A stretch of DNA of 58,045 bases from Candidatus Daviesbacteria bacterium RIFCSPHIGHO2_01_FULL_41_45 (GTDB lineage: Bacteria > Patescibacteriota > Microgenomatia > Daviesbacterales > UBA10151), in NCBI GenBank assembly GCA_001776975.1, contig MFCS01000029.1, positions 1-58,045 on the forward strand. Reading direction: 5' to 3'. Within the stretch, counting starts at the first letter, position 1, and every line of letters begins with the position of its first letter. The notes beneath the pieces were generated by a model that was not told where the DNA came from, searched no databases, and saw only the letters and a program-made list of their open reading frames with translations. Shown here one piece after another: positions 33,771 to 52,356 of this stretch. The position numbers were made by a program, and so were the translations under genes.

Positions 33771-33891
33771 AAAATAAATATACAAGTAGTCAACTTGTTA
33801 ATTCCAAACAACAATGAATTCACGGTACAAATCGTACAGTGTTTTTTGAGTTACGGAAAAACTTTACAAAGAAATGAAAGTTTCTTTTATT

Positions 33892-33934
<43 letters not shown>

Positions 33935-34722
33935 TAAGTATGCAAGTCATGGGGGTTCCGCAAGGAGCAACCGGCGGACGGGTGAGTAATGCATGGGAAT
34001 CTACCTTAAAGTTGGATATAGCTTGCCGAAAGGCAGGGTAATCTCCAATGTGTACTGAGATCGCAAGGTCGAAGTATAAAGAGCAATCGCTTTAAGATGA
34101 GCCTGTGTCCTATCAGCTAGTTGGTGGGGTAAAAGCCTACCAAGGCGACGACGGGTAGCTGGTCTGAGAGGATGGTCAGCCACAATGGGACTGCGACACG
34201 GCCCATACACCTACGGGTGGCGCAGCTAGGAATTTTCGACAATGGGCGCAAGCCTGATCGAGCGACGCCGCGTGGAGGATTGAAGGTCTTTTTGATTGTA
34301 AACTCCTTTTGTAGCCGAAGATTATGACGGTAGGCTACGAATAAGCCGCTGCTAACTACGTGCCAGAAGCCTCGGTAATACGTAGGCGGCAAGCGTTATC
34401 CGGAATCATTGGGCGTAAAGAGTTGCGTAGGCGGATCGGTGCATCTTGCTATAAATATTCCGACTTAATCGGGATTCACGGCAAGATATGGCTGATCTGG
34501 AAGATGTGAGGGGGTGTTGGAACAGATGGTGGAGCAGTGAAATGCGTTGAGATCATCTGGAACGCCAAAGGTGCAGACAGACACCTAACACATTCTTGAC
34601 GCTTAGGCACGACAGCTTGGGGAGCGAAGCAGATTAGAGACCTGCGTAGTCCAAGCCGTAAACGATCTCTGCTGGATATCCGGGACTTGTCCTGGGTGTC
34701 GAAGCTAACGCGTTAAGCAGAG

Positions 34723-34771
<49 letters not shown>

Positions 34772-35310
34772 AGGCGCACAAGCAGTGGAGCGTGTGGTTT
34801 AATTCGATTCAAAGCGAAAAACCTCACCAGGGTTTGACATGTATCTGCAAGCGCACGGAAACGTGTGATCTTCGAGAGTGATACACAGATGCTGCATGGC
34901 TGTCGTCAGCTCGTGGCGTGAGCTGTACCGTTAAGTCGGGTAACGAGCGCAACCCGCACCGTATGTTAAATAATTCATGCGGAACTGCCCCATTTTTGGG
35001 GAGGAAGGCGCGGATGACGTCAAGTCAGCACGGCTCTTACACCCTGGGCAACACACACCCTACAATGGCGAAAAACAACGAGTTGCAAGCCGGTAACGGC
35101 AAGCTAATCTCTGAAATTTCGCCTCAGTTCAGATTGAGGTCTGCAACCCGACCTCATGAAGGAGGAATTGCTAGTAATCGCGAATCAGCAGGTCGCGGTG
35201 AATACGTTCTCGCCTCTTGTACACACTGCCCGTCAAGGCAGCAAAGTTGGGGGCACCCGAACTTCCACTATGTGGGAGGAAGGTGAAACCAGCGATGAAG
35301 CTTAAGTCGT

Positions 35311-36191
35311 CCACTAATGTGAGCGACCTCTGATAGTAACATCAGAGAAAAATCCGACTGATATCGGTGAAGTCCTACTTGAAATTCGGGTTAACTTTGG
35401 TTAATCTAGAATCAAGGGAGAATACCGAGGGAAGTCTGCGATGCTTAAGCAGTATACCAACAGCAATTGGCTCAAAGATTATAAGAAGAATCTAGATTTA
35501 TCTAGTATTCAAAGAGATGTTTTGATTGGAACGATTTTAGGAGATGGCTCTTTTAAAATCTCTCGTTCAGGAAAAGCAGCTCAATTACAAATCTGTCATT
35601 CTTTTTCTTCTAAAGACTATGTCTCTTGGAAGAAGCAGATATTTGAAAATTGGGTTTTTGCAGAACCGAGATACCATCAAATAAATAACTCGTTAATTTT
35701 CAGAACGATATCTCACACTTTAATTTTTGAGTACATGAGATTTTTTTATAAAGAGAGGATCAAGATTATTCCACAAAATATTAAGAATATTTTAAAGAGT
35801 AATTTAAGTTTAGCTGTATGGTTCATGGATGATGGTAACGGTTACCTAAAAAGAAATGCATTTAGGATTAGTACCTATGCTTTTGGATTAAATGGCAACC
35901 TATTACTCCAAGAATGCTTAAGTCAGAATTTTGGATTACAAACAAATTTAGTTAGGGATAGTAAAGGATTTCAACTTTATGTCCCGGTTAGAGAGGGTGA
36001 GAAGTTTAAAAAACTTATTTCACCATTTGTAATTCCCTCGATGAAATATAAAATCGAGAATCGCAGCCCCCGTAGAGACTGATATGGAAGGTACCAGATA
36101 TTCTGGAAGTAAACTTCCATTAAACGTCGGCTCCAGTGAATAACTGGATGAAGATATAGTCCATGCCCTCAGTAATGAGCGGGTAAACATG
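35311..36191 (+). mobile_element. Group I intron in 16S rRNA (after the U equivalent to E. coli U1498)
   Basis: It splits AAGTCGT | AACAAGGTA. The 5' exon ends in U and pairs with the internal guide GCGAC (35323-35327), giving a U-G wobble. The intron ends in G. It contains GATGAAGATATAGTC (36147-36161), like the Tetrahymena AAGAUAUAGUC core strand. Confidence 0.85.
35441..36082 (+). CDS. Double-motif LAGLIDADG homing endonuclease (intron-encoded)
   Basis: Motifs LIGTILGDGSF and LAVWFMDDGNGY lie about 100 residues apart. The ORF's stop lies inside the conserved intron block GTAGAGACTGATAT. Confidence 0.9.
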   Translation: MLKQYTNSNWLKDYKKNLDLSSIQRDVLIGTILGDGSFKISRSGKAAQLQICHSFSSKDYVSWKKQIFENWVFAEPRYHQINNSLIFRTISHTLIFEYMRFFYKERIKIIPQNIKNILKSNLSLAVWFMDDGNGYLKRNAFRISTYAFGLNGNLLLQECLSQNFGLQTNLVRDSKGFQLYVPVREGEKFKKLISPFVIPSMKYKIENRSPRRD

Positions 36192-36425
36192 AACAAGGTA
36201 TCCCTACCCGAAGGTGGGGATGGATCACCTCCTTTCTGGAGATTTGATCTAACTGATGGATTCCTGAAATCTTGCTTTGCAAGTAGGCCGAAAGGCCTGC
36301 CGGCAGGCAGGCAGGTAGCCACGGTTACGATCCAGATACCTCTCACGCTTCAACAGCCTCAGCGCAAGCTAGAGATGTTGGGGACAGGTATCAAGAAGTT
36401 TGAAGCTCTTCTTAAAAAAGGCTTC

Positions 36426-36734: not shown

Positions 36735-36805
36735 AGGCCTCGACCGGATTCGCACCGGTGTACGAAGTTTTGCAGACTCCTGGATGACTACTCTCCCACG
36801 AGGCC
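36735..36805 (-). tRNA. tRNA-Cys (GCA), with a non-canonical T loop
   Basis: Manual fold: acceptor GGCCUCG/CGAGGCC, anticodon stem GGAGU/ACUUC with loop CUGCAAA, T stem ACCGG/CCGGU, discriminator U73, and a 3-bp D stem with a G13-A22 mismatch. The T loop reads UGCGAAU rather than UUCGAAU. Confidence 0.7.
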
Positions 36806-36825
36806 AGAACGGCGGATTCTTTACG

Positions 36826-36897
36826 TGGGCGATGTTGGGATCGAACCAACGACCTCGTCTTTATCAGAGACGCGCTCTACCACTGAGCTAATCGCCC
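36826..36897 (-). tRNA. tRNA-Ile (GAU)
   Basis: Clean cloverleaf: GGGCGAU acceptor, D arm GCUC-AGUGGUA-GAGC, anticodon loop CUGAUAA, T arm GUUGG-UUCGAUC-CCAAC, discriminator A. Confidence 0.9.
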
Positions 36898-47644: not shown

Positions 47645-47716
47645 GGGCCCGTAGTTCACCGGTAGAACGCTTCATTTGCAATGAAGATGTAGGAGGTTCG
47701 ACTCCTCTCGGGTCCA
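47645..47716 (+). tRNA. tRNA-Ala (UGC)
   Basis: Cloverleaf with acceptor GGGCCCG/CGGGUCC including the G3-U70 identity pair, anticodon loop UUUGCAA, T loop UUCGACU and discriminator A. CCA is not cleanly encoded (ACCCA follows). Confidence 0.9.
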
Positions 47717-47815: not shown

Positions 47816-49140
47816 AAAAATACCACGTTCATGTAAATTGAATGTGGGGGAAGAAGGCCAAAATTTACTAAATTGTAAATTTAATGCCAAAAAATACTCA
47901 ACATAAAAGCATACGGCGGATGCCTTGGTCGAAAGTACCGATAAAGGGCGTACACGGCAACGATATCCTGTGGGGAGCTGCCACGAAGCTATGATCCACA
48001 GATGCCCGAATGGGGAAACCCGATCTTTATAGATCACCTCCTGCTGAAGCATAAGCAAAGCTTGCTTTGCTGTGCAAAGTAAGCAGGAAGGGGGGTACGC
48101 GCTGAACTGAAACATCTAAGTAAGCGCAGGAAAAGAAAGCAAAAGCGATTCCCTTAGTAGTGGCGAGCGAAAAGGGAGCAGTCTAAACCACGTTCATGCG
48201 CAAGCACTGAACGTGGGGTTGTGAGGCCACGATATAGGATGTAAGAAGAATAGTAGAATCCACTGGAAAGTGGAGCCAAAGAGGGTGATAGCCCCGTAAA
48301 CGAAATTTTACTTACCCTTAGTGGTTCCTCAAGTAGCCCGGGACACGTGTAATCCCGGGTGAATCTGGGTCGACCTTGATCCAAGACTAAATATACTTTC
48401 GGACCGATAGTGAACTAGTACCGCGAGGGAAAGGTGAAAAGAAGGGCGAAATGCCCTGTGAAATAGTACCTGAAACCGTATGCTGTCAAGCTGTGGAAGC
48501 ACTGAGCCGCAAGGCGAAGTATGACCGCGTGCCTATTGAAGAATGAACCGGTGAGTTATCGTATGTGCCAAGTTTAATCAGCAATGGCTGAGAAGGCGTA
48601 GTGAAAGCGAGCCCTAACTGGGCGTCTAGGCGCATATGTTAGACCCGAAACCGAGTGAGCTAACCATGTCCAGGGTGAAGATCTCCGAAAGGTGATTGGA
48701 AGCCCGAACTCGTGACTGTTGCAATAGTCTGGGATGAGGTGTGGTTAGAGGTGATATGCCAATCGAACTCGGAGATAGCTGGTTCTCCCCGAAATATATC
48801 TAGGTATAGCCCTGTGCAATCAAATGAGGGGTAGAGCTCTGGATGGATCTGGGTGCCGCAAGGTATTCAATCCAATCAAACTTCAAATACTCATTTGTGT
48901 AGCAGGAGTCAGTCCGATCCGGCTAAGCGGAGCGGTCCTGAGGGAAACAACCCAGACCGATAGTTAAGGTCCCTAAATACAGACTAAGTGTCAAAGGATG
49001 TAAGTTTCCTTAGACAGCCAGGAAGTTGGCTTAGAAGCAGCCATCTTTTAAAGAAAGCGTAACAGCTCGCTGGTCTAGTCACGGAGACTTGCGCCGACAA
49101 TTTATCGGGGCTAAGTCTGTTACCGAAACTACGGATCAAG

Positions 49141-49590
49141 TCCGGATTTCAGAGTTCGGATGTCAGATTTCGGATATGTTAAAATGAATTTAATGCAGGA
49201 TGTAAGTGATCTACACGTCTATCAGCACTCAATGAGATTGTTAGATGAGATAAATCGTTTTCTAGATCAGTTACCAAGTAAGGATAGAGATCTCTTTCAT
49301 CAAATATTGAGAGCCGCTAGATCTATTCCCGCCTTACTTGCTGAAGGATTTGCTAAAAAGTCATCACAAAAGGACTTTCGTCACTTTGTGATCATGGCGA
49401 TGGGTTCTTCAGATGAGGTCATTACCCATCTAAGAATAGCAAAGGCAGATCCTCGGCTAATTGAGGAATACAAAGTTGTATCTAAGCAACTTAATAGATT
49501 AGCTCAGTCTCTTAATTCTGAAGCTAAACAGTTGCTGGATCAAATAATTCATAAACAATCTGATTTCTGATATCTGATTTCCGATATCCG
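49141..49590 (+). other. Intervening sequence (IVS) replacing the tip of 23S helix 45
   Basis: It lies between CTACGGATCAAG and GGCTTGGTGGTAGGGGAGCGTTC, where E. coli has only about 20 nt. The flanks TCCGGAT... and ...ATCCGGG are complementary. Confidence 0.8.
49160..49570 (+). CDS. Four-helix-bundle protein of the 23S rRNA intervening-sequence protein family
   Basis: DLHVYQHSMRLLDEINRFLDQLP...ILRAARSIPALLAEGFAKKS...MAMGSSDEVITHL matches the family pattern. An alternative start is ATG 49184. Confidence 0.8.
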   Translation: MSDFGYVKMNLMQDVSDLHVYQHSMRLLDEINRFLDQLPSKDRDLFHQILRAARSIPALLAEGFAKKSSQKDFRHFVIMAMGSSDEVITHLRIAKADPRLIEEYKVVSKQLNRLAQSLNSEAKQLLDQIIHKQSDF

Positions 49591-50371
49591 GGCTTGGTGG
49601 TAGGGGAGCGTTCAAAATGGAGCGAAGCTGTGCTGTGAGGCGTGGTGGACTGTTTTGAAGTGAGAATGCCGGTATGAGTAGCGTTTCAGACTGAGAATGT
49701 CTGACGCCGAATGCCCAAGGTTTCGCAAGCAATGTTCGTCAGCTTGCGGTTAATCGGTTACTAAGGCGAGGCCAAATGGCGTAGCCGATGAATGATCCGT
49801 TAAAATTCGGATATTAGTATTGTTTCGTTGAAATCTACGGGAGGACAAAATGGGAATATCCAGTCCGCCAATGGCGGATCCAAGTAACAAGTTAGTGGGG
49901 GTTATGAAAATCAGCCCCAAAATCGCGCAAGCGACTTAAACACGTTTGAAGCGAGTTACAAGTGCGATAAAAAGTGGAAAGTTTCTGTTTTCAAGAAAAG
50001 CCTCGTAGATAGAAACAATTTAGCCGTACCATAAACCGACACAGGTGGGCGAGTTGAGTATACAAAGGCGATCGAGTGAATCATCCTTAAGGAACTCGGC
50101 AACAAAAGCTGGACGTAAGTTAGCAAGATGTCCTGCCTTAAATCGCAAGATTTAGGGCCGCAGTGAATGACCCTGAGCGACTGTTTATCAAAAACACAGC
50201 TCCCTGCTAAAGTGAAAACTGATGTATAGGGGGTGACACCTGCCCAGTGCCAGTAATTTAACATTTTCTTTGACCTGATGGAGCAATCTTGAGGTGAGGA
50301 GAGGATCTAAGATCTGGTGAACGGCAGCAGTAACTATAACTGTTCTATGGTAGCGAAGTTCCTTGTCTGGT

Positions 50372-51096
50372 GAATGAATTCGCCAGTTCCAGAAGTGATT
50401 CTGGAAAAAATTCGGCTAATATCGGTGGAATCCTAAAAAAGTATTTACTTTTGTCTTATATTCGGGTAATCTGATTATAGGAGGGACAATACCGAGGGAA
50501 GTCGGGAAGTACCAATTGGTATAACCTTGACCCTGTAACGACTGATATATGAGGTACCAGATAATCTGGAGAAAAACTCATATTATACGCCGACGCTTAA
50601 TGAATAATTTAGGATGGTATCTTTCTGGTTTTGCTGACGGAGAAGGTAGTTTTTGTGTCTATTTCTCGCCTCGAAGTCGAATGACTTTGGGTTGGGAGGT
50701 TAGACCAAGCTTTTCTGTCGGGCAGAACACTTCAAGGCCTGAAGTTTTGAATCTATTTCTGCAATATTTTAAGTGTGGAAGTTTACGAGCTAATAAGGGA
50801 GATAATACTGTAAAATTTGAAATTCGCAGTTTAAGACCGTTATTAGATATTGTGATTCCTCATTTTAGAAAATATCCAGTACTTTCAAGCAAAGCTAAGG
50901 AATTTGAGAAGTTTGTTGCTATTTGTAACTTACTTTCCCAAAGTTCCCACTTAACTGAAGCTGGATTTAAGAAAATTGTTGATTTAGCATTTGAAATGAA
51001 TGGTTTAGGAGCAAGAAGATATAGCAAACAATACATTCTAGATAATCTTAAGATGAAGATATAGTCTGATCCTACTAGTAATAGTGGAGAAATATG
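50372..51096 (+). mobile_element. Group I intron in 23S rRNA at the site equivalent to E. coli U1951 (L1951)
   Basis: It splits GTCTGGT | GAGTTCAGACC (E. coli GUCGGGU|AAGUUCCGACC). The guide GCCAG (50382-50386) pairs with the exon end CTGGT, giving a U-G wobble. The intron ends in G. The core block GATGAAGATATAGTC lies at 51052-51066. The 3' boundary is good to about 3 nt. Confidence 0.8.
50549..51064 (+). CDS. Single-motif LAGLIDADG homing endonuclease (I-CreI/I-CeuI-like size), intron-encoded
   Basis: LGWYLSGFADGEGSF motif. The likely true start is ATG 50600 (MNNLGWYL...), since the first 17 codons overlap a conserved intron block. The stop TAG lies inside GATATAGTC. Confidence 0.85.
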   Translation: MRYQIIWRKTHIIRRRLMNNLGWYLSGFADGEGSFCVYFSPRSRMTLGWEVRPSFSVGQNTSRPEVLNLFLQYFKCGSLRANKGDNTVKFEIRSLRPLLDIVIPHFRKYPVLSSKAKEFEKFVAICNLLSQSSHLTEAGFKKIVDLAFEMNGLGARRYSKQYILDNLKMKI

Positions 51097-51196
51097 GAGT
51101 TCAGACCCGCACGAAAGGTAGAACGACTTAGGGACTGTCTTGAGGGTGAACTCGGCGAAATTGCAGTGGCTGTGAAGATGCGGCCTTCCCATACTT

Positions 51197-51232
<36 letters not shown>

Positions 51233-51351
51233 TCCCTGATTTGAAAATTTGATTGTGTAGCGTAGGAGGGAGCTTCGGCGACGATGAAACACCTCTCTTT
51301 CGAATTTTTAAGTCTCACCTCGACCCATAATCTGGGAGAGGGACAAGGCCT

Positions 51352-51382
<31 letters not shown>

Positions 51383-51545
51383 AAAAAAGTAACGGAGGCG
51401 TGCAAAGGTTGACTTAGGACGGATGGCAATCGTCCATAAAGCGCAAAAGTAAATAGTCAGCTTGACTGCGAGACCTACAAGTCGAGCAGGTGCGAAAGCA
51501 GGCTTTAGTGATCCTGTGTCAGCTCAAGGGAGCGGCACGGCTTAT

Positions 51546-51579
<34 letters not shown>

Positions 51580-51619
51580 GATACCCAACAGTCCACAAGG
51601 ACGGTATCGTTCGGCACCT

Positions 51620-51951
51620 TAATATATCGGGGTGCGGTGGGAGTAATCCCATTAACCTGTTATACAAAATATATAATTTGTCTTTTTGAAAAAATACTAG
51701 CTAAAATCGGTGAACTCCTATCTAAATCAATAGAGGACAACACCGAGGGAATCCTTCGATTCTGAGAATCTCAGGACGAGGACCCGTAACGACTTTTCCG
51801 CCTTTGGCGGGAGGATTCAAGGTACCGAAGGTTACTTCGGATTAAAACTTGGATAAAAGGCTAGCTCCTTCATTTGAGCGGGACTTGTCCCGAACAAGCG
51901 AAGGATGAAGGTATAGTCTAAGCTGCAGGTAACTGTAGATTTTTATGACAG
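51620..51951 (+). mobile_element. ORF-less group I intron in 23S rRNA at the site equivalent to E. coli U2500 (L2500)
   Basis: It splits GGCACCT | CGATGTCGGCTC exactly. The guide GGGTGC (51630-51635) pairs with the exon end GCACCT, giving a U-G wobble. The intron ends in G. The core block GATGAAGGTATAGTC lies at 51904-51918. Confidence 0.85.
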
Positions 51952-52356
51952 CGATGTCGGCTCATCCTATCCTGGGGCTGTAGAAGGTCCCAAGGGTCTG
52001 GCTGTTCGCCAGTTAAAAGGTTACGCGAGCTGGGTTCAGAACGATGTAAATCAGTTCGGACTCTATCCAGTATGGGCGTTTGGATTCTTGAGGGGAGTTG
52101 TCTCTAGTACGAGAGGACCGAGATGAGGCAACCTCTAGTGTGCCGGTTGTCACTACAGTGGCAGCGCCGGGTAGCTACGTTGTTTCCTGATAAGTGCTGA
52201 AAGCATCTAAGCACGAAGCAGACCCCAAGATTAGGGATCTTTAAGACCCCAAGTAGACTACTTGGTTGATAGGAGAGCGGTGTAAGTGCAGTAATGCATT
52301 TAGCTTACTCTTACTAATGGTCGTAGTTGAGATTTTTTGGTTGGAGCTTTCTTTCG

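What the first reader, a model, noticed from the sequence alone, without database searches (positions are those of the whole stretch)
35311..36191. Group I intron with a double-motif LAGLIDADG gene inserted in the 16S decoding-centre strand, inside the 1492R primer site
The insertion splits AAGTCGT|AACAAGGTA, just after the U equivalent to E. coli U1498 and 5-6 nt from A1492/A1493. Exon 2 is exactly 44 nt, as in E. coli. The group I hallmarks are all present: a U-G wobble in P1 with the guide GCGAC, a terminal G, and an AAGATATAGTC-type core strand. The unspliced rRNA could not form the decoding site, so splicing must be efficient. The intron also destroys the 1492R binding site. Insertions in CPR 16S genes are known in general, but this exact site and its relatedness to the 23S introns are worth documenting.
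Basis: partly seen in the sequence, partly recalled or inferred. Interest (0 to 1): 0.6.

Follow-up and report, generated by a model that had tools for sequence, protein, structure and literature searches.

The report
Known-type group I intron in 16S
The only 16S rRNA gene of this tiny uncultured bacterium is split, next to the decoding centre, by a genuine self-splicing-type (group I) intron carrying its own homing-endonuclease gene, but introns of this kind at this exact spot were already described in 2024.

Summary
An 881-nt insertion (35311-36191) splits AAGTCGT|AACAAGGTA, after the equivalent of E. coli U1498. The boundaries cannot slide, and a 44-nt 3' exon follows.

It is a group I intron. 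I traced P1 to P9, including the P3/P7 pseudoknot. Six sister introns from other genomes support the fold: 93.7% of cells are paired against 35-43% when the partners are slid, and 31 pairs change on both sides.

Rfam's group I model gives only 22.6 bits on the window itself, because a 642-nt ORF sits in the P6a loop. ORF-less homologues at the same site score 54-82 bits, above the 50-bit threshold.

The ORF is an intact I-SceI-like LAGLIDADG_2 enzyme with two motifs, and it is under purifying selection.

Splicing could not be tested, because no RNA run holds this organism.

Novelty is low. Tsurumaki et al. 2024 (PMC11270868) already describe CPR site 16IS10, position 1498, with group I introns encoding LAGLIDADG_2 or LAGLIDADG_3.

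New here:
- A covariation-backed fold.
- The two gene families occupy different loops (P6a and P8).
- The same intron family also sits in Actinomycetota and Dormibacterota chromosomes.

This scan has noted CPR rRNA introns on other DNA, but I found no note on site 1498.

The parts
35306..35310 (+). 3' end of exon 1 (GUCGU). It is the 5' strand of P1, and U35310 is the splice-site U (E. coli U1498).
   Evidence: The pairing with 35323-35327 is invariant in 7 of 7 subfamily members.
35311..36191 (+). Group I intron, 881 nt.
35323..35327 (+). Internal guide sequence GCGAC (3' strand of P1). G35323 forms the U-G wobble. A small hairpin (CAC 35312-35314 / GUG 35319-35321) sits in the P1 loop.
   Evidence: GCGAC is present within 45 nt of the 5' splice site in the 116 extracted introns, but this was a selection criterion.
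35328..35347 (+). P2 hairpin (CUCUGAU / AUCAGAG).
   Evidence: 5 of its 7 pairs change on both sides across the subfamily (helix 3).
35354..35358 (+). P3 5' strand (CCGAC). It pairs with 36126-36130 (GUCGG).
   Evidence: helix 4: 100% paired, 2 pairs with double changes.
35364..35428 (+). P4-P5 domain. P4 is 35364-35368 / 35424-35428. P5 and its extensions lie at 35373-35419. J4/5 and J5/4 are A-rich.
   Evidence: for coordinates. helices 5-7: P4 is 100% paired with one compensatory G-C to A-U change.
35429..35442 (+). P6 (GGG) and the P6a 5' strand (CUGCGAU). They pair with 36060-36069. The GAGG at 35427-35430 is a possible ribosome-binding site, and the ATG at 35441 lies inside P6a.
   Evidence: helices 8, 9. 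That GAGG acts as a ribosome-binding site is inference.
35441..36082 (+). Homing-endonuclease gene, 213 aa, LAGLIDADG_2 (I-SceI-like, two motifs), lying in the P6a loop. Its last codons run through P6a', P6', J6/7 and the P7 5' strand. The stop codon TGA is at 36080-36082.
   Evidence: ORF. (Pfam 2.1e-34). (PDB 6x1j 1.8e-18; I-SceI 1r7m 1.4e-13, full length). (codon-position differences 0.26 / 0.19 / 0.50; both motifs conserved).
36060..36069 (+). P6a and P6 3' strands (AUCGCAG, CCC).
36075..36080 (+). P7 5' strand G(A)GACU with a bulged A36076. It pairs with AGUCC at 36158-36162. G36077-C36161 is the presumed guanosine-binding pair.
   Evidence: The helix is invariant in 7 of 7 members, so it is consistent with the fold but uninformative (helix 10). 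Rfam aligns the same strands in the sibling L097. The assignment of the G-binding pair is by analogy with other group I introns.
36084..36120 (+). Extra hairpin between P7 and P3', like the P7.1 helix of subgroup IA introns. The outer stem is 36084-36090 / 36114-36120 and the inner stem is 36094-36098 / 36102-36106.
   Evidence: helices 11 and 12: 100% paired, 6 pairs with double changes. By the GGTACC[AG] motif it is found in 9 of the 116 same-site introns, plus L020, which carries it in a variant form. It is present in both 23S introns of this window.
36126..36130 (+). P3 3' strand (GUCGG).
36132..36148 (+). P8 hairpin (UCCAGU / ACUGGA).
   Evidence: helix 13: 3 pairs with double changes.
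36149..36162 (+). J8/7 (UGAAGAUAU) and the P7 3' strand (AGUCC).
   Evidence: It is the best-aligned part of the Rfam match.
36163..36190 (+). P9.0 (AUG 36163-36165 / CAU 36188-36190) enclosing P9 (36166-36171 / 36176-36182), which has a GUAA tetraloop.
   Evidence: helices 14 and 15. P9.0 also co-varies in more distant homologues (AAG/CUU in L003, GCG/CGC in L010).
36191..36191 (+). Terminal guanosine (omega-G), the 3' splice site.
   Evidence: The G before AACAAGGTA was part of the search pattern, so its conservation in the hits is by construction.
36192..36235 (+). Exon 2, the last 44 nt of the 16S (helix 45 and the anti-Shine-Dalgarno end).
   Evidence: The same 3' end is found in L006, L094 and L020.

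Best explanation
Window 35311-36191 is a mobile group I intron in the single 16S rRNA gene of a candidate-phyla-radiation (Patescibacteria/Microgenomates-type) bacterium. It is inserted after the equivalent of U1498.

Proposed mechanism:
1. The pre-16S transcript folds so that exon GUCGU pairs with the intron guide GCGAC (P1, U-G wobble at the cut site).
2. A free guanosine bound in P7 attacks after U35310.
3. The terminal G36191, positioned by P9.0 and P7, takes its place. The exons are joined, which restores ...AAGUCGU-AACAAGG... and so the decoding-centre strand.
4. The 213-aa ORF in the P6a loop is a monomeric, two-motif LAGLIDADG (I-SceI-like) homing endonuclease. It most likely cuts intron-less 16S genes at this universally conserved site, so that the intron is copied in by repair.
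5. Its start codon and likely ribosome-binding site are buried in P4'/P6/P6a, so translation and ribozyme folding probably exclude each other.

Shown here: the position, the fold with covariation, the homology and intactness of the gene, purifying selection on it, and the recurrence of the element at this site.

Inferred: splicing in vivo, endonuclease activity and target, homing, and the interplay between translation and folding.
For: - Position and hallmarks were read directly.
- Fold: 84 pairs in 15 helices on the alignment of the window plus 6 sister introns. 93.7% of cells are paired, against 34.7-42.8% with partners slid by 1-3 columns. 31 pairs change on both sides. No shuffle of 500 reached the observed value for paired cells, pairs or cells with changes on both sides, or the covariation score.
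- Rfam: the group I model aligns the same P3-P9 helices in the natural ORF-less sibling L097 (46.6 bits, E 5e-11). It passes its threshold in 13 other introns at the same site (53.8-81.8 bits).
- Gene: Pfam LAGLIDADG_2 2.1e-34. Full-length match to I-SceI structures. Both motifs and their acidic residues are conserved in 8 of 8 relatives. Third codon positions vary about twice as much as first and second positions.
- Only one 16S gene was found in the 96%-complete assembly.
- Literature: CPR rRNA insertions are removed from transcripts (Brown et al., as cited in PMC11270868). Position 1498 is a recognised group I site with LAGLIDADG_2 and LAGLIDADG_3 genes.
Against: - There is no RNA evidence for this organism. 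The RNA runs found hold only conserved 16S pieces of other organisms.
- Rfam RF00028 on the window itself is below threshold (22.6 bits against 50).
- P1 and P7 never vary, so covariation says nothing about them.
- P10 is weak here. Most family members have UGUU next to the guide, which pairs with the exon-2 start AACA. The window has only a displaced UGU that is also used by the P1-loop hairpin.
- Self-splicing without a protein helper is not shown for any intron at this site.
Confidence: 0.9

Rival explanations
1. It is a group I intron by descent, but the ribozyme no longer splices on its own. Removal depends on the encoded LAGLIDADG protein acting as a maturase, or on host factors.
For: P10 is weak in the window. 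The 642-nt ORF in P6a and the extra hairpin make folding harder. LAGLIDADG proteins with maturase activity are known (mentioned in PMC11270868). The Rfam score is below threshold.
Against: All core helices are intact and co-vary. The core strands J8/7, J6/7 and P7 are identical to those of compact ORF-less relatives that pass the Rfam threshold. ORF-less derivatives such as L097 persist in 16S genes, and L097 sits in a 16S that scores 1140 bits, so the protein cannot be generally required.
Confidence: 0.12
2. The insertion is cut out without ligation, like the RNase III-processed intervening sequences of 23S rRNA. The ribosome would then carry a fragmented 16S with a separate 44-nt 3' piece.
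For: Fragmented rRNAs and unligated intervening sequences are known in bacteria, including some with reduced genomes (PMC11270868). This window's 23S also has an intervening-sequence-type insertion with a 23S_rRNA_IVP gene.
Against: A complete, co-varying group I catalytic core, a terminal G and P9.0 would not need to be conserved for RNase III excision. No long flanking stem brackets the insertion itself. The 44-nt piece would have to hold helix 45 and the anti-Shine-Dalgarno end by only a few pairs.
Confidence: 0.04
3. The insertion is an assembly or binning artefact: a chimeric join of an intron-bearing fragment to this 16S.
For: The genome is a metagenome-type assembly of 34 contigs.
Against: The junctions are exact to the base on both sides. 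The same architecture recurs in 118 independent 16S genes, including complete chromosomes. The contig continues for tens of kb on both sides of the gene.
Confidence: 0.01

Closest known systems
CPR 16S rRNA insertion site 16IS10 (position 1498): group I introns encoding LAGLIDADG_2 or LAGLIDADG_3 (Tsurumaki, Sato, Saito and Kanai 2024, J Bacteriol, PMC11270868)
   Same: Same gene, same position, same intron class, same endonuclease family, same kind of host. The paper notes that LAGLIDADG_2 proteins at 1498 form two distant clades. That fits the window-type proteins (55-77% identical to each other) against the 37%-identical L075 protein.
   Different: Nothing essential differs. The paper classifies the introns by Rfam hit only. 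It gives no secondary structure for this site, does not say which loop holds the gene, and counts LAGLIDADG_2 as 'single-domain' in the Pfam sense, whereas the protein has two LAGLIDADG motifs like I-SceI. I could not check whether this very genome is in their data set (the held supplement has no hit).
LAGLIDADG_3-bearing and ORF-less group I introns at the same 16S site in other genomes (for example L003, L004, L006, L010)
   Same: Same splice site, guide GCGAC, core strands (UCGGUGAA, ACCGAGGGAA, GUAGAGACU, GAAGAUAUAGUCC), P9.0, and GNRA loops on P2 and P9.
   Different: In 68 of 116 introns the gene is LAGLIDADG_3-type. Where I looked, it lies in P8 and ends on the UAG inside J8/7. The window's gene is LAGLIDADG_2 and lies in P6a. 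Most of these relatives lack the extra hairpin between P7 and P3' and have a clear P10 (UGUU/AACA).
The two group I introns in this genome's own 23S rRNA (about 50372-51096, with a LAGLIDADG_1 gene in P8; and 51620-51951, ORF-less)
   Same: Same core blocks and the same extra hairpin (GGUACC...) between P7 and P3'. BLAST finds 74% identity over 76 nt.
   Different: Different host gene and guide sequence, and a different endonuclease family and loop.
I-SceI and related mitochondrial intron endonucleases (PDB 1r7m, 6x1j)
   Same: Full-length sequence match (E 1e-13 to 2e-18), about 210-235 aa, and two LAGLIDADG motifs in one chain.
   Different: Those are mitochondrial enzymes, and the I-SceI intron lies in large-subunit rRNA. 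The target here would be the 16S 1498 region. No activity data exist.
[quoted passage not shown] 2012, PNAS; cited in PMC3984707 and PMC11270868)
   Same: Group I introns in bacterial 16S genes, some with LAGLIDADG genes. They are the only experimentally characterised case according to PMC11270868.
   Different: Different hosts. From memory, one of their four sites lies near position 1495. I could not verify this or compare sequences, because the paper is not held. Tsurumaki et al. state that group I introns at 16IS10 had not been reported in known bacteria.

Membership tests
Group I intron (Rfam RF00028) | P1 helix between the exon end and an internal guide, with a U-G wobble at the 5' splice site | tested here: met
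   GUCGU 35306-35310 pairs with GCGAC 35323-35327, and U35310-G35323 is the wobble. It is invariant in 7 of 7 sisters.
Group I intron (Rfam RF00028) | Terminal guanosine at the 3' splice site | tested here: met
   G36191 immediately precedes AACAAGGTA.
Group I intron (Rfam RF00028) | Conserved core: the P3-P8 and P4-P6 domains, the P3/P7 pseudoknot, and J8/7 | tested here: met
   All helices were placed. 93.7% of cells are paired and 31 pairs have double changes, against 2-11 in the slid controls. P7 itself is invariant. Rfam aligns the same helices in the sibling L097.
Group I intron (Rfam RF00028) | Score at or above the family's gathering threshold (50 bits) | tested here: not met
   The window scores 22.6 bits, E 0.0028. 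The ORF in P6a and the extra hairpin break the model. The ORF-less sibling L097 scores 46.6 bits. Same-site homologues score 53.8-81.8 bits. The failure is explained by the insertions, not by a missing core.
Group I intron (Rfam RF00028) | Guanosine-dependent self-splicing | not testable with these tools
   No RNA run holds this organism.
Group I subgroup IA (extra helices P7.1/P7.2 between P7 and P3') | Peripheral helices between P7 and the 3' strand of P3 | tested here: inconclusive
   A co-varying two-stem hairpin lies at 36084-36120. However, closely related introns at the same site lack it, and no subgroup-specific models were available. I do not assign a subgroup.
CPR 16S insertion site 16IS10 / position 1498 (PMC11270868) | Insertion at E. 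coli position 1498 of the 16S gene | tested here: met
   The junction is AAGTCGT|AACAAGGTA. Numbering follows the established 1492R site.
CPR 16S insertion site 16IS10 / position 1498 (PMC11270868) | Group I-like insertion encoding LAGLIDADG_2 or LAGLIDADG_3 | tested here: met
   Pfam LAGLIDADG_2 2.1e-34. For the group I evidence see the rows above.
CPR 16S insertion site 16IS10 / position 1498 (PMC11270868) | Host is a CPR bacterium | tested here: met
   The genome is 685 kb. Its phylum sample consists of 0.4-2.1 Mb genomes. The closest intron and endonuclease relatives are in Daviesbacteria and Microgenomates records. This is indirect, because the genome itself is unnamed.
LAGLIDADG_2 / I-SceI-like monomeric homing endonuclease | Two LAGLIDADG motifs in one chain, each ending in an acidic residue | tested here: met
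   LIGTILGDGS starts at residue 28 and LAVWFMDDGN at residue 124. Both are conserved in 8 of 8 relatives. The protein aligns full length to I-SceI chains.
LAGLIDADG_2 / I-SceI-like monomeric homing endonuclease | Site-specific cleavage of the intron-less allele | not testable with these tools
   This needs protein expression and a cleavage assay.

The most novel reading that the evidence does not exclude
The position-1498 intron is not a CPR peculiarity. It is one mobile ribozyme lineage spread across distant bacterial phyla. About 49 of the 116 recovered copies have a distinct 'actinobacterial' core variant, and these include copies in complete 3-5 Mb chromosomes of Solirubrobacterales, Acidimicrobiaceae and Dormibacterota. 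Two unrelated LAGLIDADG gene families have colonised different loops of the same ribozyme: P6a in the window's rare form and P8 in the common form. If so, the ribozyme has repeatedly acquired different homing-endonuclease genes while keeping one universally conserved target next to the decoding centre. As far as I could find, the occurrence outside the CPR is not in the literature I could search.
Probability: 0.5. Interest if true: 0.45.

Novelty: already known. Interest (0 to 1): 0.22.

Why it matters
For this window it matters mostly as annotation.
- The 16S gene is 2,350 nt long (33886-36235), not the 1,459 nt that the Rfam model reports. The model forces its last positions onto intron sequence and misses the true 44-nt 3' exon.
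- 1492R-type primers cannot bind this gene, so the organism is invisible to full-length 16S amplicon surveys.

The case also illustrates how far selfish introns are tolerated in CPR ribosomal RNA. The only 16S copy is interrupted five bases from the decoding adenosines, so every ribosome depends on accurate splicing.

The wider points deserve a short note rather than a discovery claim. They are the covariation-backed fold, the two endonuclease families in different loops, and the same intron family in soil Actinomycetota and Dormibacterota chromosomes.

Tried and rejected
1. Rfam on the window at gathering threshold gave no group I hit. At the E-value threshold it gave 22.6 bits, covering mainly J8/7-P7-P9. 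I do not take this as evidence against group I identity, because the ORF and the extra hairpin explain it.
2. RNA evidence. The look-up of sequencing runs returned only runs sharing at most 16% of sampled words. Laying four of them showed depth only over conserved 16S stretches, with many mismatches. There was no cover of the intron and no joint across 35310/36192. These are other organisms' rRNA, so nothing can be said about splicing either way.
3. Salman et al. 2012 (PMC3306719) is not held. Searches for 'S1495' and in two Thiomargarita/Beggiatoaceae papers gave no site numbers.
4. The held supplement of PMC11270868 has no entry for '1498' or '16IS10'.
5. One cmscan call on four loci failed internally. 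I repeated it on two loci.
6. I considered building my own covariance model. I did not, because the subfamily alignment is 952 columns (limit 400) and a model built from ORF-less relatives would again be broken by the ORF.
7. I considered that the window-type intron came from a 23S intron by a change of site, because of the shared extra hairpin. I set this aside. The same hairpin motif occurs in same-site introns with the other gene family (L070, L103), and by eye the window's P4-P6 region is closest to same-site introns such as L004.
8. No subgroup was assigned, because no subgroup models were available.

Full report
**What is there.** The bacterial SSU model covers 33886-35344, but its last 35 or so positions are forced onto unrelated sequence. 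The true end of the gene is further on. Reading the sequence, exon 1 ends ...GCTTAAGTCGT at 35310 and the conserved continuation AACAAGGTATCC... starts at 36192. It runs 44 nt to ...CACCTCCTTT at 36235. The 881 nt between (35311-36191) are the insertion. The junction cannot be moved in either direction. The assembly (685 kb, 34 contigs, 96% complete) contains no other 16S match and no second copy of the intron.

**Is it a group I intron?** Rfam's model does not reach its threshold on the window. There is no hit at gathering level, and 22.6 bits (E 0.0028 on 1.1 kb) at the permissive level, aligned mainly over GAAGAUAUAGUCC and the last hairpin. I therefore derived the fold by hand and tested it comparatively.

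- An exact pattern for the core strand plus the exon-2 start found the same junction in 8 of 401 genomes of the phylum, with no control hits.
Of these, 118 are 16S 3' ends.
- I extracted 116 introns.
- Six of them (L017, L020, L033, L038, L041, L115) carry a protein 55-77% identical to the window's. They align with the window over their whole length (alignment A1).

On A1 my structure has 84 pairs in 15 helices, with coordinates. It has 93.7% of cells paired, against 34.7-42.8% when partners are slid by 1-3 columns. There are 31 pairs with changes on both sides, against 2-11 in the slid controls. No shuffle of 500 reached the observed paired fraction, pairs or cells with changes on both sides, or covariation score. 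P2, P3, P4, P5b, P6a, P8, P9, P9.0 and the extra hairpin each show compensatory changes. P1 and P7 are invariant, so they are consistent with the fold but uninformative.

The structure is the standard one:
- P1: 35306-10 / 35323-27, with U35310-G35323 as the wobble.
- P2: 35328-47.
- P3: 35354-58 / 36126-30.
- P4-P5: 35364-35428.
- P6 and P6a: 35429-42 / 36060-69.
- P7: 36075-80 with a bulged A / 36158-62, forming the pseudoknot with P3.
- P8: 36132-48.
- J8/7: 36149-57.
- P9.0: 36163-65 / 36188-90.
- P9: 36166-82, with a GUAA loop.
- Terminal G: 36191.

**Independent support from the curated model.** A natural ORF-less derivative of the window type (L097, 269 nt) still holds the ATG and the last codons of the lost gene. 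It scores 46.6 bits (E 5e-11) over the full length of RF00028, with the same helix assignment as mine. Only the 32-nt extra hairpin is treated as an insertion. More distant ORF-less introns at the same site, and one with the gene in P8, pass the 50-bit threshold with 53.8-81.8 bits. So the family belongs to group I, the window's member is homologous to it, and the low score on the window is due to the 642-nt ORF in P6a plus the extra hairpin.

**The gene.** ORF 35441-36082 (213 aa) matches Pfam LAGLIDADG_2 over the whole domain (E 2.1e-34). It also matches solved I-SceI-type enzymes over nearly their full length (6x1j 1.8e-18; 1r7m 1.4e-13). It has two LAGLIDADG motifs, starting at residues 28 and 124. 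Both, with their acidic residues, are conserved in all eight relatives. Mean pairwise differences by codon position are 0.26, 0.19 and 0.50, the signature of selection on the protein. So 'double-motif' is right. The 2024 paper's 'single-domain' refers to one Pfam domain.

The ATG lies in the 3' end of the P6a 5' strand. A GAGG lies 10 nt upstream within P4'/P6. The reading frame runs through P6a', P6', J6/7 and P7, with the stop codon overlapping the last P7 base. I infer that translation and ribozyme folding compete. This is not tested.

**How it most likely works.** It works by standard group I splicing: guanosine attack after U35310, then exon ligation at G36191. This restores the strand that carries A1492, A1493 and U1498. 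The endonuclease would cut intron-less alleles at this universally conserved sequence and drive homing when such alleles are met. Because this is the only 16S gene found, removal must be efficient. That is inference, supported by the statement that CPR rRNA insertions are absent from transcripts (Brown et al., as cited in PMC11270868). One weak point is P10. Most relatives have UGUU next to the guide, which pairs with the exon-2 start AACA. The window subfamily does not, so 3' splice-site choice would rest on P9.0 and the terminal G.

I could obtain no RNA evidence. The best RNA runs share at most 16% of words and hold only other organisms' conserved 16S pieces.

**Comparison with what is known.** Tsurumaki et al. 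2024 (PMC11270868) surveyed 380 CPR 16S genes. They defined ten frequent insertion sites and list 16IS10 among the group I intron sites. [quoted passage not shown] The window's element is therefore an instance of a published class.

- (a) A base-level fold with covariation.
- (b) The location of the genes. Of 116 introns, 68 carry a LAGLIDADG_3-type gene (Pfam check on L003). In 51 of the 116 the longest ORF ends on the UAG inside GAUAUAGUC, and where I read the sequence the gene lies in P8. Only 7 carry the window-type LAGLIDADG_2 gene in P6a, plus a 37%-identical one in L075. About 30 are ORF-less (198-358 nt).
- (c) The extra hairpin between P7 and P3' is a variable module. By its motif it is found in 9 of the 116, with either gene family, plus L020 in a variant form. 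It is shared with both 23S introns of this genome.
- (d) The family is not confined to the CPR (see below).

I do not assign a subgroup. The extra hairpin is IA-like, but compact relatives lack it, and no subgroup models were available.

**Outside the CPR.** About 49 of the 116 introns have a distinct core variant (GCUGGAA / CAGCAGGGAA). Records carrying it include ones labelled Solirubrobacterales, Acidimicrobiales, Actinomycetota, Dormibacterota and Chloroflexi. Among them are complete chromosomes of 3-5 Mb (OY970282.1, OY970155.1, OY970307.1). For two of these I confirmed a full 16S next to a group I hit above threshold: L026 with 71.6 bits and L049 with 55.8 bits. A full-text search found no paper combining 'group I intron' with these taxa. 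That is weak evidence of novelty, not proof.

**Verdict.** The element is an ordinary, already described kind of CPR rRNA intron, so interest is low. The wider distribution and the two-loop, two-gene pattern are the only parts that may be new.

Noticed in passing
window 33886-36235: The Rfam SSU model reports the 16S as 33886-35344. It forces its last 35 or so positions onto the first 34 nt of the intron and misses the real 44-nt 3' exon at 36192-36235. Automatic annotation would give a wrong 16S 3' end here.
   Followed up: yes
window 47893-52337: The 23S rRNA gene is 4,445 nt for a 2,925-position model and holds three insertions. One is an intervening sequence with a 136-aa 23S_rRNA_IVP gene (49160-49570, Pfam 2.6e-21). 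One is a group I intron at about 50372-51096, with P1 CUGGU/GCCAG and a 171-aa LAGLIDADG_1 gene (50549-51064) in P8 that ends on the UAG of J8/7. One is an ORF-less group I intron at about 51620-51951, with P1 CACCU/GGGUG and 48.9 bits. The boundaries were read by eye.
   Followed up: partly
L026 (OY970282.1), L029 (OY970155.1), L049 (OY970307.1) and about 45 other loci: Group I introns at the same 16S position occur in non-CPR bacteria, including complete 3-5 Mb chromosomes labelled Solirubrobacterales, Acidimicrobiaceae and Dormibacterota. They have their own core variant (GCUGGAA / CAGCAGGGAA) and often a LAGLIDADG_3-type gene. I found no paper on this in the held library.
   Followed up: partly
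L003:841-1541, L004, L007, L008, L009 and 46 others: In the common form of the position-1498 intron, the LAGLIDADG_3-type gene lies in P8. Its stop codon is the UAG inside the catalytic-core strand GAUAUAGUC, so the last three to four codons (...MKI or ...LKI) are fixed by the ribozyme core.
   Followed up: partly
L097:4458-4726 (-), record LCLX01000003.1: This is a 269-nt ORF-less derivative of the window-type intron. It keeps the start ATG in P6a and the last codons before P7. It looks like a clean deletion of the endonuclease gene, one stage of the gain-decay-loss cycle.
   Followed up: partly
window 36735-36897 (-) and 47645-47716 (+): The 16S and 23S genes are 11.6 kb apart. Two tRNA genes lie on the opposite strand just after the 16S, and one tRNA gene lies just before the 23S. 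No 5S gene follows the 23S in this window.
   Followed up: no
L011, L020, L030, L032, L038, L039, L052 and others (TPA MAG records): Many records titled 'uncultured Gammaproteobacteria' or 'Pseudomonadales' carry 16S 3' ends and introns identical in type to Daviesbacteria or Microgenomates records. Their taxonomic labels look unreliable.
   Followed up: no
L059, L077, L097: The same 16S genes also hold group II intron domains (Rfam group-II-D1D4-1, 36-51 bits) upstream of the position-1498 intron. This may correspond to the published CPR group II site near position 1400, but I did not map their positions.
   Followed up: no
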